Shown here: positions 9,424 through 12,354 of the stretch, in pieces
Layout: each line of letters opens with the position of its first letter
How positions within the stretch are numbered: the first letter of the stretch is position 1
Source: a virus
Taxonomy: Duplodnaviria > Heunggongvirae > Uroviricota > Caudoviricetes
Virus record (IMG/VR): IMGVR_UViG_3300027807_000001
Span: 83,285 to 147,284 of that record
Length of the DNA stretch: 64,000 nt
Direction: 5' to 3' (one strand)
The notes under the pieces: generated by a model
Database searches by the model: none
Told to the model about the DNA's origin: nothing
The model's input: the letters and a program-made list of their open reading frames with translations, nothing else
Translations under genes and position numbers: made by a program

Positions 9424-9720
9424 GTGGCAAAGAAGAATAGAGACGCTCTTTGTTGTCAAATCAACCAGGTAGGTACCTGCGGCGTTTGCCTCAAAAAGTT
9501 GTGCGAAGACCACGCAGGTTTGTCGTACAGTGTCTGTAAAAGCAATAAGTGTTATACGATATACGTGTACAGAGCTACTGAACAAGCTAAAGCGTTAGAG
9601 CTGCAGAAGCAAATGCAGCTAGAACGGATGCGTAAAGACAGAAGAACTCCGACATCAAAAGATATATCTTCATCAGGATATCGTCTTCTCAAGAAGATAG
9701 AGTCCCGGAAAAAGAAATAA
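9424..9720 (+). CDS. LCC/B-box-like zinc-finger protein
   Basis: LCCQINQVGTCGVCLKKLCEDH. Confidence 0.65.
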   Translation: MAKKNRDALCCQINQVGTCGVCLKKLCEDHAGLSYSVCKSNKCYTIYVYRATEQAKALELQKQMQLERMRKDRRTPTSKDISSSGYRLLKKIESRKKK

Positions 9721-9796
9721 CTATAAGCTATGCTTATTTCAAAATAAGACTCCTTCTCCTCACAAAAAGACCAGTTGACGATTTGTAAAATATAAT

Positions 9797-10285
9797 ATGG
9801 AAGATTTCTATAACGAAGAATTAATCAAGGAACGTGGCTTTAGATGCAAAGACTGCTCTCAATTGATGCATCAGCATACGTTCACCGGCGACTGGCATAA
9901 GACAGGGGCGGTAGATCGCTGGGGAAATCCCACAACTGAATTCCGTTATAAAAATAAATGCGACGAGAATTTTCGCGCGCCGGGGGTTTGGTACAGTGAT
10001 CTTCGATACCCAAACCTCTTATTGATCAATAAGAAGTGGTATCATTTTTCTCACAGAGCTTCTATGCTCGCACTTGTTGTAAAGTCAGATGTAGCAGTTA
10101 CAGTGGACAGGAGAGATTCTTTACAGTCCCCTAAGCCAGTCCTTATTGAGACGTACGGGGATATGTATAACTTTGCTGCTCAGCAGGGGATTTTAGAAAA
10201 GCTTAAGCGGCTCGTAGATGCGGAGACGTTTAAGTCTATGCAGTCAAAGTCTATCGAAAGGGCAATGAAAAAGTTATCCGCGTAA
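9797..10285 (+). CDS. hypothetical protein
   Basis: 162-aa ORF, N-terminal CxxC. Confidence 0.55.
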   Translation: MEDFYNEELIKERGFRCKDCSQLMHQHTFTGDWHKTGAVDRWGNPTTEFRYKNKCDENFRAPGVWYSDLRYPNLLLINKKWYHFSHRASMLALVVKSDVAVTVDRRDSLQSPKPVLIETYGDMYNFAAQQGILEKLKRLVDAETFKSMQSKSIERAMKKLSA

Positions 10286-10519
10286 TATGAGTGAGCGATG
10301 TCTGCCATGCCTTGTACATGATAAGAAGTGGTGCAGCCACTTTCTCTACAGAGCAGAATGTGCTGAATGCGAGTGGGATCAACTATACGCTCGACAGATC
10401 TTGTCCATCGCATGTCCAAAGTGCCATAAGTGGATAACTCCTAAGAAGTTACAGCTAGGGAAAGATTATTATTAGTATCGAATTTTGTACAATATCACTT
10501 AAGAACAAAGGGGAAAGAA

Positions 10520-11059
10520 ATGACTATCGTAGAGGCCTTAAAAACCAAGAAGCGCTTAAATAAGAAGTTAGAGGATCTTCGCCGGAAGATTTCGGACTAC
10601 AGCGCCCATCTCGACTCTGAGAAGCCGGTGTATGGAGCAGACCAGAAGGCTCGTGTCGAAGGGTGGGTACAAGCCCACCGGGACTTAGTGTCCAAGATCG
10701 AGGAGCTTTCGATTGCCATCCAGAAGACTAATCTCGCGACTCAAGTAGAGATTACACTGGGCGGTAAGCCTGTAAAGAAGTCGATTTCTCAGTGGATCCT
10801 TCGCCGCACGTCGCTGGCTGCTCATGAGCAGGCTTGCTTTGCTGCTTTGCATGACCGCAATCTCAGAGATCAGACGGTCGTAGCCTCTGATGGTAAGACG
10901 AAGCAGACGATCTCAGTCGTTCGCTATTTCGATCCTGTCGAGCGTGATAGAATGGTAGATGTGTACCGCCACGAGCCGTCGATGATTGATCAGAAGCTTG
11001 AGGTCGTAAACGCAACTACTCAGTTGGTTGATGACGTGCAAGTTACGGAAGAAGCTTAA
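10520..11059 (+). CDS. coiled-coil protein, DIP1984-like
   Basis: MTIVEALKTKKRL..LEDLRRKI, LSIAIQKTNLAT, LEVVNATT resemble the MKLAEAL..-type DIP1984 pattern; SD AAAGGGG. Confidence 0.55.
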   Translation: MTIVEALKTKKRLNKKLEDLRRKISDYSAHLDSEKPVYGADQKARVEGWVQAHRDLVSKIEELSIAIQKTNLATQVEITLGGKPVKKSISQWILRRTSLAAHEQACFAALHDRNLRDQTVVASDGKTKQTISVVRYFDPVERDRMVDVYRHEPSMIDQKLEVVNATTQLVDDVQVTEEA

Positions 11060-11460
11060 GATCTAGACTGACCGACTACCTAAAGCTTCGGCGATGGGTG
11101 TGCTCAAATGGATATTCGGCAGTAAGAGCTAAGGTACTGAAAGCTCTTAATTGTACAACCGCTACGCAAAGAGAATAAAACCAGCAAAAAGGAACGCTAA
11201 TTAACGCGACAGTTAATTATTTCCAATTACATGGGAACATCGATCGGGCTCAATTGCCCAATGGTTAATTAGGGAGCAATCCCCAATAACTTCAAGGCTA
11301 AAGGCTTAAGGATCAAGTGATCAAGTTCACAAGGTATAAGGGGTAAGGGGTAAGGATCATCTGAATGGTATTACATTCAGAAACCCAAGAACAAGTTACC
11401 GTTTTTCCTTTTCTTCATCTGGAACTTCCTTGGCTTCCTTTTCGGGAGCGGGTCGTACAC
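11060..11460 (+). ncRNA. candidate ~400-nt structured RNA with AAG heptad repeats
   Basis: no credible ORF; several hairpins (UUCG and GCAA loops); nine AAG triplets at 7-8 nt spacing (11294-11354); downstream pyrimidine tract. Confidence 0.55.
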
Positions 11461-11493
11461 ATTTTGAAATGAAACGGGTGGGGAGGCCTGCAC

Positions 11494-11679
11494 ATGGTGA
11501 GTAAATTAACTCCTCCACTCTGTTGCTTAGTTAATCCTGTCTTTATCTGTAGCACTTGTGACCAGGACTTGTGCGCGGAATGTATGAGCAAATTCCATAC
11601 AGAAAAGGAAGGGTGGCATCAAAACTGCATACCCCCGCGCACCTCACTATGCCCCTGCGCGTTAACAGGCCCAATATGA
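11494..11679 (+). CDS. LCC/B-box-like zinc-finger micro-protein
   Basis: LCCLVNPVFICSTCDQDLCAECMSKFH. Confidence 0.7.
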   Translation: MVSKLTPPLCCLVNPVFICSTCDQDLCAECMSKFHTEKEGWHQNCIPPRTSLCPCALTGPI

Positions 11680-11860
11680 AACACCGACTAATATTTGAAG
11701 ATGTGATGAGAGCAAAGTGTTCTTGTGGAGAATGGGCTTATATAGGCCTTACCGCAGAAGCAAACGCTTCAATCAAAAAGGTATATAGGTACCATACTGA
11801 GCTTCAGACCTTACCGAGAAAGGTAGCACGAAAGGTAAAATCTAAGAAGAAGGGTTAGAT

Positions 11861-12108: not shown

Positions 12109-12354
12109 ATGGCCGAAAAAGATTACATTTCCGTTAGAAAGGAGCAGCCTCTCTGCTGCATAATTAATCCTCGCTATATCTGCGATAAGTGCAGCTCACG
12201 CATCTGCGCAGATTGCTGCTACGTAAGTGATCAAGAAGTGATGAACAGTAATGTTAGTAACAAGCAGGTAACAATGCGACGAAAGGATCACATAGATACA
12301 TCGTGCATCGATTTAAATGACGAGATCCATTCAACATGGCGAAAAATAATCTAG
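12109..12354 (+). CDS. LCC/B-box-like zinc-finger micro-protein
   Basis: LCCIINPRYICDKCSSRICADCC. Confidence 0.7.
   Translation: MAEKDYISVRKEQPLCCIINPRYICDKCSSRICADCCYVSDQEVMNSNVSNKQVTMRRKDHIDTSCIDLNDEIHSTWRKII

What the first reader, a model, noticed from the sequence alone, without database searches (positions are those of the whole stretch)
10520..11460. Coiled-coil gene followed by a ~400-nt structured RNA with nine AAG triplets at 7-8 nt spacing
Seen: directly after the stop of a DIP1984-like protein is a non-coding stretch with hairpins GC-TTCG-GC, AAGAGCT/AGCTCTT, TAATTAAC/GTTAATTA, GGG-AGCAAT-CCC and CTGAATG/CATTCAG. AAG triplets occur at 11294, 11301, 11308, 11315, 11323, 11331, 11338, 11345 and 11352. 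A CTT/CCTT-rich tract at 11402-11442 can pair with AAAAGGAACG (~11187-11196) or with the repeats. Established: ring-shaped RNA-binding proteins such as TRAP read regularly spaced triplets. Inference: a two-component protein plus RNA module, in which an oligomer of the upstream protein binds the periodic repeats, or the repeat/pyrimidine pairing acts as a switch. This is the best candidate here for an undescribed ribonucleoprotein system.
Basis: partly seen in the sequence, partly recalled or inferred. Interest (0 to 1): 0.8.

Follow-up and report, generated by a model that had tools for sequence, protein, structure and literature searches.

The report
Heptad-repeat RNA beside DUF6847 gene
Right behind a small phage gene of unknown function lies a real, knotted non-coding RNA of about 310-390 bases, present in RNA libraries, that displays nine evenly spaced AAG units; the gene-plus-RNA pair recurs in almost every relative examined and matches no catalogued RNA family, so it is probably an undescribed protein-RNA particle whose job is still unknown.

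Summary
Nine AAG triplets sit at the stated positions, 7-8 nt apart, and this run is unique in the 210-kb phage genome. The 434-nt gap after the DUF6847/DIP1984-like gene is a structured RNA. Its core is 11152-11459, closed by an end-to-end helix, and it contains an H-type pseudoknot. Six hairpins or helices covary.

Two moss metatranscriptomes each hold one contig confined to the gap. A covariance model of the 3' domain finds one same-strand copy next to the gene in 82 of 94 homologous loci. Starting from the RNA instead, 6 of 6 testable loci carry the gene.

Rfam 15 has no match, and no paper on the protein family's function was found.

Whether the protein binds the repeats is untested. Modelling supports a symmetric homodimer, not a nine-membered ring. 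The repeat/pyrimidine "switch" shows no covariation.

The best reading is a dedicated RNP or titration module: several protein dimers dock on a phased AAG array. Three phased AAGs over the gene's own ribosome-binding site hint at autoregulation.

This scan has met the same family before on other DNA (about 50 genomes). Here it is independently re-derived.

The parts
10501..10517 (+). Three phased AAG triplets (10501, 10508, 10515; spacing 7, 7) covering the Shine-Dalgarno region, ending 2 nt before the ATG of the DUF6847 gene. Candidate autoregulatory site.
   Evidence: Read directly from the sequence. At least two phased AAG occur in the 30 nt before the start in 21 of 65 DUF6847 genes, against 12 of 184 neighbouring ORFs that have an SD (odds ratio 6.8, p 1e-6). 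The function is inferred.
10520..11059 (+). DUF6847 / DIP1984-like gene, 179 aa. Helical protein with two small beta hairpins.
   Evidence: PF20935 E 1.7e-7, above its cutoff. AlphaFold2 model pLDDT 91.2. The only significant PDB fold match is 3KDQ (E 7.7e-5, TM 0.53-0.62). 372 cluster representatives at E<=1e-3.
11060..11151 (+). Poorly conserved 5' leader with hairpins (GC-UUCG-GC; AAGAGCU/AGCUCUU 11123-11148). In relative L091 a tRNA-like gene occupies this place.
   Evidence: Alignment A2. RNA-library contigs start at 11073 and 11103. tRNA model hit in L091 at 2549-2622, 36.9 bits.
11152..11459 (+). Structured core of the non-coding RNA (about 308 nt), closed by helix P0.
   Evidence: RNAalifold on four close relatives gives 53 pairs, 19 with compensatory changes. 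The family-wide tests are listed under the sub-parts.
11152..11173 (+). P0, 5' strand of the closing helix. Pairs with 11438-11459.
   Evidence: Own 5'/3' strands give -21.2 kcal/mol against -13.7 for mismatched partners. 0 of 20,000 permutations reach this, over 14 loci. Compensatory changes TGTAC/GTACA -> TCATA/TATGA and CCGC/GCGG -> TTGC/GCAA.
11181..11194 (+). Pseudoknot 5' strands: Pk1 CCAG (11181-84) and Pk2 AAAAGGAA (11187-94).
   Evidence: Native duplex -8.8 against -5.5 kcal/mol, 0 of 20,000 permutations, 12 loci. Examples: AAAGAGAA/UUCUCUUU, AAAAAUAGA/UCUAUUUUU, GCAGAA/UUCUGC.
11198..11219 (+). H1: 8-bp hairpin with the conserved hexaloop GCGAnA, preceded by the conserved GAACGC.
   Evidence: Found at the same relative place in 14 or more loci with different stems. 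6 of 7 pairs are compensated among 4 relatives.
11221..11283 (+). Variable domain: H2 (11221-37), H3 (GGGC/GCCC 11246-59) and H4 (GGGA-GCAA-UCCC 11272-83). Many relatives have a tRNA or tRNA-like gene here instead.
   Evidence: ARAGORN finds tRNAs with odd anticodons between H1 and the repeats in relatives. Sub-threshold YrlA match on such an insert in L011.
11293..11359 (+). Array of nine phased units, consensus [C/U/A]AAG[G]N[U], period 7-8 nt, with no conserved pairing partner.
   Evidence: The family's modal count is 9 strict AAG units, median span 75 nt. AAG triplets are mostly unpaired in a constrained fold. No covariation with the U-rich strand.
11360..11381 (+). H5: 8-bp hairpin closing the array on its 3' side.
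   Evidence: Kept with compensatory change in relatives. Variable in sequence and length across the family.
11385..11433 (+). Hairpin Pa (11385-89 with 11429-33) plus Pb (AAGUU 11393-97 with AACUU 11423-27). Its loop carries the pseudoknot 3' strands Pk2 (11405-12) and Pk1 (11419-22).
   Evidence: the count of structure pairs on 58 sequences: 88.1% paired against 33-56% when slid. 105 compensatory cells against 19-49, and 0 of 500 shuffles reach the observed value.
11432..11438 (+). Invariant GGCUUCC, which joins Pa to the 3' strand of P0.
   Evidence: G136, G137 and T139-C142 are invariant and C138 is nearly invariant in the 58-sequence alignment.
11304..11459 (+). Match to covariance model R1 (3' domain). 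The only strong match in the genome; the only other hit under E 1 is 10.1 bits at E 0.46.
   Evidence: 90 bits, E 1.6e-22.
11073..11426 (.). Stretch covered by single contigs of two metatranscriptome runs (X6 11073-11426, X5 11103-11419).
   Evidence: Contigs cannot show the strand or the true ends.

Best explanation
The gap after the DUF6847 gene encodes a stable non-coding RNA of a new, widespread family that is inherited as a unit with that gene.

Shown: the RNA folds into a closed scaffold. An end-to-end helix P0 closes it. An H-type pseudoknot forms when the loop of the Pa/Pb hairpin pairs with an A-rich strand near the 5' end. This scaffold holds out an unpaired array of nine [C/U/A]AAG units spaced 7-8 nt apart, flanked by hairpins H4 and H5.

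Inferred: the array is a docking platform for several copies of the DUF6847 protein, which probably acts as a symmetric dimer. The RNA and protein would then form one multi-copy particle, or the RNA titrates the protein in the way CsrB titrates CsrA.

Inferred: the three phased AAG units over the gene's own ribosome-binding site would let free protein repress its own translation.

What the particle does for the phage is unknown. Its frequent placement in tRNA operons, and the tRNA-like inserts in relatives, point loosely to RNA metabolism.
For: The RNA is real and structured:
- Pa/Pb covary in 58 sequences: 88% paired against 33-56% when slid, and 105 compensatory cells against 19-49.
- The pseudoknot strands co-vary (0 of 20,000 permutations). 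So do the closing-helix strands (0 of 20,000).
- RNAalifold on 4 relatives gives 19 of 53 pairs compensated.

Transcription:
- Two RNA libraries from two studies each hold one contig confined to 11073-11426. Word depths are 45 and 66, against 2-3 for the contigs on the coding sequence. The tool warns that contig depth is a poor measure of expression.

Linkage:
- 82 of 94 homologous loci have exactly one R1 match, always on the gene's strand.
- Loci found by an RNA pattern alone carry the gene in 6 of 6 testable cases.
- Even relatives with 30%-identical proteins and a different scaffold keep two sets of four phased AAG units.

The array is the conserved feature:
- AAG is the best-phased trinucleotide downstream in 56 of 89 loci.
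- The modal count is 9 units with A-A-G invariant.

Self-association:
- Complex prediction scored 0.74 against a best control of 0.02. That mark was reached by 20 of 30 proteins solved as pairs of one chain and by 1 of 23 solved as single chains.
- The runs agree in at least 85% of contacts, and the partner's pLDDT is at least 84.
- The same residues form the interface on both copies, so the interface is symmetric.
- A relative (3KDQ) is solved, so the pass may come from memory.

Ribosome-binding site:
- Phased AAGs are enriched there (odds ratio 6.8, p 1e-6).
Against: - No protein-RNA contact was tested. Gene linkage alone does not prove binding.
- A symmetric dimer does not by itself explain a 7-8 nt period or an odd number of units.
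- Most invariant residues include several acidic ones (D19, D55, E152, E161). This would also suit an enzyme.
- The RNA-library contigs stop at 11419/11426, short of the 3' strands of Pb, Pa and P0. The mature RNA may therefore be cut or differently ended. This is only a weak hint.
- The ribosome-binding-site enrichment rests on related, non-independent loci, and SD sequences are AAG-rich anyway.
Confidence: 0.5

Rival explanations
1. The RNA acts on a host factor rather than on DUF6847. It could be a sponge or decoy for a host RNA-binding protein, nuclease or the ribosome, such as CsrA, S1, Hfq, an SD-directed or anticodon nuclease. On this reading it travels with the gene only because the two act in the same pathway or share a transcript.
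For: The last unit of the array in many relatives reads CAAGGAUGU. From memory, that fits the CsrA SELEX consensus RUACARGGAUGU, and many units look like the start of an SD sequence. The RNA sits in tRNA operons, and relatives carry tRNA-like inserts. RNA-library contigs over the RNA have higher word depth than those on the mRNA.
Against: Only A-A-G is invariant. The next base is G in 57% of units, and GGA is present in 2 of 9 units here. The strict one-to-one, same-strand linkage holds across very different hosts and in both gene orders. That is not expected for a host-directed decoy. The hosts include phyla where CsrA is not universal.
Confidence: 0.2
2. This is a toxin-antitoxin-like or enzyme-substrate pair. 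DUF6847 would be an enzyme, such as a metal-dependent RNase or RNA-modifying enzyme, that recognises AAG. The multi-site RNA would be its inhibitor, substrate or precursor, as ToxI is for ToxN.
For: The module is self-contained and mobile between phages and bacterial chromosomes, with unrelated neighbours. Conserved acidic and polar residues lie outside the predicted dimer interface. RNA contigs have higher word depth than mRNA contigs. RNA-library contigs end near the conserved CUGG|AACUU junction, a weak hint of cleavage.
Against: There is no nuclease or toxin family match in Pfam, NCBIfam or PADLOC. No fold match exists other than 3KDQ. The repeats are 7 nt inside a large scaffold, not 34-45-nt tandem units. 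The RNA usually follows rather than precedes the gene.
Confidence: 0.15
3. This is a DNA-level element. The 7-8-bp repeats would be iterons or operator sites for a DNA-binding protein, such as a replication origin or a regulatory region for the downstream genes.
For: It is a phased short repeat in an intergenic region. The next gene starts 34 nt after the core.
Against: Compensatory base-pair changes in six helices, including G-U pairs, only make sense for RNA of the + strand. The strand is fixed relative to the gene in 82 of 82 matches. RNA-library contigs are confined to the element. No sigma-70 promoter-like site was found.
Confidence: 0.03
4. This is a chance low-complexity tract, or the remnant of a decayed gene.
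For: None beyond the short ORFs of 35-58 codons that overlap the region.
Against: The chain of nine is unique in the genome and absent from shuffles. The element is conserved with 1-nt indels and RNA-type covariation in relatives.
Confidence: 0.01

Closest known systems
CsrA-CsrB / RsmA-RsmZ protein-titrating RNAs
   Same: The RNA carries many copies of a 3-5-nt motif, which could hold several copies of a small symmetric dimeric protein. A motif also overlaps a ribosome-binding site. RNA-library contigs over the RNA have high word depth.
   Different: The motif is AAG, not GGA. The units lie in a phased 7-8-nt single-stranded array, not in hairpin loops. The protein is a helical DUF6847, not CsrA. 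The RNA gene is always adjacent to the protein gene. Binding is untested.
TRAP (MtrB) with the trp leader, and HutP with the hut terminator (Bacillus)
   Same: Regularly spaced triplets are read by an oligomer.
   Different: From memory, TRAP reads 11 (G/U)AG separated by 2-3 nt with an 11-mer beta ring. Here the period is 7-8 nt, the protein is helical and the only modelled interface is a dimer. The RNA is a stand-alone scaffolded transcript, not an attenuator leader.
Type III toxin-antitoxin systems (ToxIN, CptIN, TenpIN)
   Same: A two-part protein plus repeat-RNA module that moves between phages and bacteria. RNA contigs have higher word depth than mRNA contigs.
   Different: From memory, those repeats are 34-45 nt in pure tandem, lie upstream of the toxin behind a terminator, and the toxin has a ToxN/Kid-like RNase fold. 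None of this holds here.
Ro60 (Rsr) with bacterial Y RNAs (YrlA, Rfam RF02553)
   Same: A structured RNA partner of one protein, often carrying a tRNA-like domain and found near RNA-repair genes. RlaP lies 1.2 kb downstream here.
   Different: There is no RF02553 match in the window. Only a sub-threshold match exists (34.5 bits against a cutoff of 69), on the tRNA-like insert of one relative. The protein is not a TROVE/Ro60 protein. Y RNAs have no heptad array.
DIP1984 family / Pfam DUF6847 (crystal structure 3KDQ, Corynebacterium diphtheriae; function unknown)
   Same: The protein is a member by Pfam score and by fold.
   Different: It falls below NCBIfam's own cutoff. No RNA partner is recorded for the family in any source searched.
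Phage T5 gene T5.085 (annotated 'tail fiber protein', phrog_1491) and the unannotated 360-nt gap after it
   Same: The window protein matches phrog_1491 over its full length (E 8.6e-6), and T5.085 is a core member (E 3e-82). The gap behind it carries about 11 phased AA[A/G/C] units at 7-8 nt, four of them strict AAG.
   Different: T5.085 does not reach PF20935 or my profile (hhalign probability 2.5%). R1 does not match the T5 gap (10.9 bits). It is at best a distant, altered version.
Large ornate phage/bacterial RNAs (ROOL, GOLLD, OLE, raiA)
   Same: A large, intricately folded RNA of unknown function, frequent in phages and near tRNAs.
   Different: No Rfam match at gathering or at E<=10. It is smaller, has a dedicated protein gene and a phased repeat array.

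Membership tests
DUF6847 / DIP1984 protein family | Score above Pfam PF20935 gathering cutoff | tested here: met
   31.7 bits against a cutoff of 27, covering 2-141 of 141 profile positions.
DUF6847 / DIP1984 protein family | Score above NCBIfam NF038048 cutoff | tested here: not met
   46.1 bits against a cutoff of 70. It is a divergent subfamily.
DUF6847 / DIP1984 protein family | Fold of PDB 3KDQ | tested here: met
   Foldseek E 7.7e-5, TM 0.53-0.62. It is the only hit with E<=0.001.
Any Rfam 15 family (incl. ROOL, GOLLD, YrlA, RAGATH-27 RF03100, tmRNA, ribozymes) | Covariance-model match at the gathering score | tested here: not met
   Window: only tRNAs elsewhere, and nothing relevant at E<=10 on 10900-11700. 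In 20 + 12 related loci only embedded tRNAs reach threshold.
TRAP-type RNA target | About 11 (G/U)AG triplets separated by 2-3 nt; MtrB-family protein | tested here: not met
   The units are [C/U/A]AAG at 7-8 nt. The protein has no MtrB match and is mainly helical.
CsrB/RsmZ-type sponge | Many GGA motifs, mostly in hairpin loops; CsrA partner | tested here: not met
   GGA is present in 2 of 9 units. Position 5 is G in 57% of units and position 6 is A in 17%. The units are not in hairpins. The adjacent protein is not CsrA.
Type III toxin-antitoxin | Tandem 34-45-nt repeats upstream of a ToxN/CptN/TenpN-fold RNase gene | tested here: not met
   The repeat period is 7-8 nt, the RNA lies downstream, and there is no such domain or fold.
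Type III toxin-antitoxin | Protein toxic alone and neutralised by the RNA | not testable with these tools
   Needs expression experiments.
The new 'DUF6847-associated heptad RNA' family (defined here by model R1 and helices P0, Pk, H1) | 3' domain with Pa/Pb, invariant GGCUUCC, preceded by phased AAG units | tested here: met
   R1 scores 90 bits, E 1.6e-22 at 11304-11459.
The new 'DUF6847-associated heptad RNA' family (defined here by model R1 and helices P0, Pk, H1) | Adjacent, same-strand DUF6847 gene | tested here: met
   Gene 10520-11059 on the + strand. 82 of 94 loci overall.
The new 'DUF6847-associated heptad RNA' family (defined here by model R1 and helices P0, Pk, H1) | Protein binds the AAG array | not testable with these tools
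   Only self-association of the protein could be modelled.

The most novel reading that the evidence does not exclude
A previously undescribed class of ribonucleoprotein particle shared by phages and bacteria. A pseudoknotted, end-closed scaffold RNA presents about nine to ten AAG units at a fixed 7-8-nt pitch. Four to five symmetric DUF6847 dimers polymerise on them. The array folds back so that each dimer bridges one unit of the first half and one of the second. Free protein feeds back on its own ribosome-binding site through the same phased AAG code.
Probability: 0.35. Interest if true: 0.85.

Novelty: categorically new. Interest (0 to 1): 0.75.

Why it matters
Neither the RNA nor the protein has a described function. 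Yet the pair is kept together in hundreds of phage lineages, from jumbo phages to (probably) the model phage T5, and in bacterial chromosomes. Selection that strong implies an important, unrecognised activity.

The RNA gives DUF6847/DIP1984 its first concrete functional lead: a phased AAG code. That makes the family directly testable by EMSA, RIP-seq and cryo-EM.

If the particle model holds, it adds a new way in which proteins read periodic RNA, beside TRAP, HutP, CsrA and viral nucleocapsids. It also adds a new accessory RNA to phage biology, next to phage tRNAs and tmRNA. If it acts on host defence or RNA repair, it matters for phage-host conflict.

Tried and rejected
- RNAalifold on the raw 58-sequence MAFFT alignment found only 2 pairs. 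The helices had to be set by hand and tested with the count of structure pairs and permutation tests.
- blastn and tblastn of the region, the window protein and a second family member (P0050) against 50,697 deposited phage genomes found nothing. The T5 link rests only on phrog_1491 and on reading the T5 gap.
- The profile search of PDB sequences found nothing. The AlphaFold-DB Swiss-Prot fold search gave nothing meaningful. PADLOC gave nothing.
- The phrog_1491 label 'tail fiber protein' is rejected as an annotation artefact. The gene lies among early genes and tRNAs in both phages.
- Literature searches for DUF6847, DIP1984, PF20935, 3KDQ, RAGATH-27 and T5 non-coding RNAs found nothing relevant.
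- The promoter/terminator consensus scan found no site that explains the RNA's ends.
- RNA-library contigs do not cover 11427-11459, nor the genes on either side beyond 10974 and 11509. Missing cover from contigs proves nothing. I do not use it as evidence for the RNA's ends, for cleavage or against co-transcription.
No loose ends or joints were reported.
- The 16-base DNA pattern scan mostly returned chance matches: 73 of 80 failed the covariance model.
- The coding potential of the gap was considered and rejected, because of 1-nt indels and RNA-type covariation.
Full report
**Context.** The window is bases 83285-147284 of a complete 210,348-bp phage genome with direct terminal repeats. It carries 32 tRNA genes. 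Earlier notes of this scan describe it as an uncultivated jumbo phage from peat moss. All sequencing runs that hold the region and carry an uncoded organism label are moss metagenomes.

The finding lies in an accessory-gene region. Upstream is a DUF559 endonuclease-like gene. Downstream are small zinc-finger genes, a DksA/TraR-type zinc finger and an RlaP nucleotidyltransferase. The same order is seen in related jumbo-phage contigs.

**The observation.**
- A chain of nine at 7-8 nt spacing is unique in the genome. The runner-up has four, and shuffled genomes reach three or four.
- The preceding gene (10520-11059, 179 aa) is DUF6847 by Pfam. It is a sub-cutoff DIP1984 relative by NCBIfam.
- Its AlphaFold2 model (pLDDT 91) has one significant PDB neighbour, the function-unknown 3KDQ.
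- The gap to the next gene is 434 nt.

**It is a conserved element tied to the gene.** I collected 46 close homologues and 372 cluster representatives. I then fetched 89 loci from viral and genome collections plus five contigs of the closest relatives.
- In the 600 nt after the stop codon, AAG is the best 7-8-nt-phased trinucleotide in 56 of 89 loci. Upstream, distal and coding controls give shorter chains.
- The typical layout is five units (7-7-7-8), then a spacer slot, then four more. Some loci have the element immediately upstream of the gene instead.
- Over 77 non-redundant loci the modal number of strict AAG units is nine, the median span is 75 nt, and the unit reads [C/U/A]-A-A-G-[G 57%]-N-[U 58%].
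- A covariance model of the 3' domain (R1) hits the window once at 11304-11459 (90 bits). It hits exactly one same-strand site in 82 of 94 loci, including 24 loci not used to build it.
- In the reverse direction, a DNA pattern scan of viral contigs gave seven true R1 hits. All six with enough flank have a DUF6847 ORF just upstream, and the seventh abuts a contig end.
- Bacterial MAG loci whose protein is only about 30% identical lack the R1 domain. They still carry two sets of four phased AAG units split by a hairpin, amid unrelated chromosomal genes. The array is therefore the feature that follows the protein most faithfully.

**It is a folded RNA.** Read from 58 aligned 3' domains and the four closest relatives, the window's RNA has the following parts:
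- P0: 11152-73 with 11438-59.
- A conserved AGAGAAUAAAAC-type joiner.
- Pk1: CCAG 11181-84 with CUGG 11419-22.
- Pk2: 11187-94 with 11405-12.
- H1: 11198-11219, with the conserved loop GCGAnA.
- A variable domain H2-H4: 11221-83.
- The array: 11293-11359.
- H5: 11360-81.
- Pa: 11385-89 with 11429-33.
- Pb: AAGUU 11393-97 with AACUU 11423-27.
- The invariant GGCUUCC: 11432-38.

Pk pairs the loop of the Pa/Pb hairpin with a strand outside it, so the fold is an H-type pseudoknot.

The tests gave these results:
- Pa/Pb are 88% paired against 33-56% when the partner is slid. There are 105 compensatory cells against 19-49, and no shuffle of 500 reaches the observed value.
- For Pk, each locus's own strands pair at -8.8 kcal/mol against -5.5 for foreign partners (0 of 20,000 permutations, 12 loci).
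- For P0 the values are -21.2 against -13.7 kcal/mol (0 of 20,000, 14 loci).
- RNAalifold on only four relatives independently recovers P0, H1, H4, H5, Pa and Pb, with 19 of 53 pairs compensated.

The loci are related, so these counts are not probabilities. The variety of pair types is still hard to explain otherwise.

It has no comparative support: own partners give -10.5 against -10.3 kcal/mol for foreign ones, p = 0.33. With the known helices enforced, most AAG triplets are predicted to be unpaired.

**It is in RNA libraries.** Two moss metatranscriptome runs from two studies each contain a single contig confined to the gap: 11103-11419 at word depth 65.6, and 11073-11426 at depth 45.4. Contigs on the coding sequence in the same runs have depth 2-3.3.

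The tool warns of three limits: contig depth is a poor measure of expression, contigs show neither strand nor ends, and RNA libraries can contain DNA. Contaminating DNA would not favour this 350-nt piece, so I read this as consistent with a discrete RNA. It is not proof of its boundaries. Both contigs stop 33-40 nt short of the conserved 3' strands, which is at most a weak hint of processing.

**The protein.** The model is a long helical hairpin (3-27, 39-73), a beta hairpin, a third helix, a second small sheet and a C-terminal helix.

Four copies modelled together pass the self-association test. The score is 0.74, and the best of three controls is 0.02. That mark was reached by 20 of 30 proteins solved as pairs of one chain and by 1 of 23 solved as single chains. 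The runs agree in at least 85% of contacts, and the partner's pLDDT is at least 84. The interface uses the same residues on both copies, so it is a symmetric dimer. Because a relative (3KDQ) is solved, the pass may reflect memory.

Most invariant residues lie outside that interface: D19, W49, Q51, D55, T70, N71, W92, R96, E152, E161 and N164. They could form an RNA-binding or a catalytic surface.

**A side observation that fits the model.** The gene's own leader carries AAG at 10501, 10508 and 10515. These are again 7 nt apart and end 2 nt before the ATG. Two or more phased AAGs occur in the last 30 nt before the start in 21 of 65 DUF6847 genes. For neighbouring SD-bearing ORFs the figure is 12 of 184 (odds ratio 6.8, p 1e-6).

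**What it most likely is.** Shown: a new, widespread, structured RNA, transcribed here, that is co-inherited with DUF6847 and presents a phased AAG array.

Inferred: the array is where several DUF6847 dimers dock, giving a particle or a CsrB-like titration device with feedback on the gene's own ribosome-binding site.

Rivals are a host-directed decoy (0.2), a toxin- or enzyme-type pair (0.15), a DNA-level element (0.03) and chance (0.01).

**Comparison with the known.**
- Rfam 15 has no match in the window at gathering score or at E<=10. Nor does it match in 32 related loci, apart from embedded tRNAs and one sub-threshold YrlA hit on a tRNA-like insert.
- The defining features of TRAP, CsrB, type III TA and Ro60/Y RNA were tested and not met (see the membership table).
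- No paper on DUF6847/DIP1984 function was found.
- In phage T5, gene T5.085 shares phrog_1491 with the window protein. It is mis-labelled 'tail fiber protein'. An unannotated gap follows it with about eleven phased AA[A/G/C] units. However, it matches neither PF20935, nor my profile, nor R1, so T5 is a plausible but unproven distant version.

**Verdict.** The element belongs to an uncatalogued RNA family that this scan has already met on other DNA, in about 50 genomes. Here it was re-derived independently.

Noticed in passing
window 10501-10517: Three AAG triplets 7 nt apart overlie the ribosome-binding site of the DUF6847 gene itself. The same phasing is enriched before homologous genes (21 of 65 against 12 of 184 neighbouring ORFs).
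   Followed up: partly
window 10500-11000 vs flanks: The DUF6847 gene has G+C of 0.49-0.54, against about 0.40-0.45 in neighbouring genes and in the RNA. This may mark a horizontally acquired cassette.
   Followed up: no
window 9637-10217: A 98%-identical strain in two other DNA runs replaces these 579 bases (most of the 162-aa ORF 9797-10285) with 552 unrelated bases. From 10523 onward there are almost no differences. This looks like a gene-cassette swap just upstream of the module.
   Followed up: no
L002, L008, L015, L024, L040, L055, L072, L078 (between H1 and the repeats): Relatives carry tRNA-shaped genes inside the RNA with unusual anticodons (AGG, ACU, AUU, AAU) or 2-nt 'anticodons'. 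One such insert in L011 gives a sub-threshold YrlA match. They may be structural tRNA-like domains rather than decoding tRNAs.
   Followed up: partly
L084, L085, L086, L089 (about +130 to +260 after the stop): Distant bacterial homologues (about 30% identity) keep two sets of four phased AAG units separated by a G+C-rich hairpin, but lack the R1 3' domain. This is a second architecture of the same idea.
   Followed up: partly
L217 (phage T5) 43142-43504, minus strand: The unannotated gap after T5.085 ('tail fiber protein', phrog_1491) holds about 11 phased AA[A/G/C] units. The T5 record annotates several other 'stable RNAs with unknown functions' but not this gap.
   Followed up: partly
window 11494-11679 and 12109-12354: The genes that follow the RNA belong to the expanded LCC/B-box-like zinc-finger mini-protein family already noted for this genome. 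There is a weak B-box Pfam match.
   Followed up: no
window 11460-11466 and the 3' ends of many relatives: The 3' strand of the closing helix P0 is often followed by a short U run: CAUUUUG here, and UUUUU or UUUUUU in L009, L021, L036, L065 and L073. The whole-molecule closing helix may double as a terminator-like 3' end signal.
   Followed up: no
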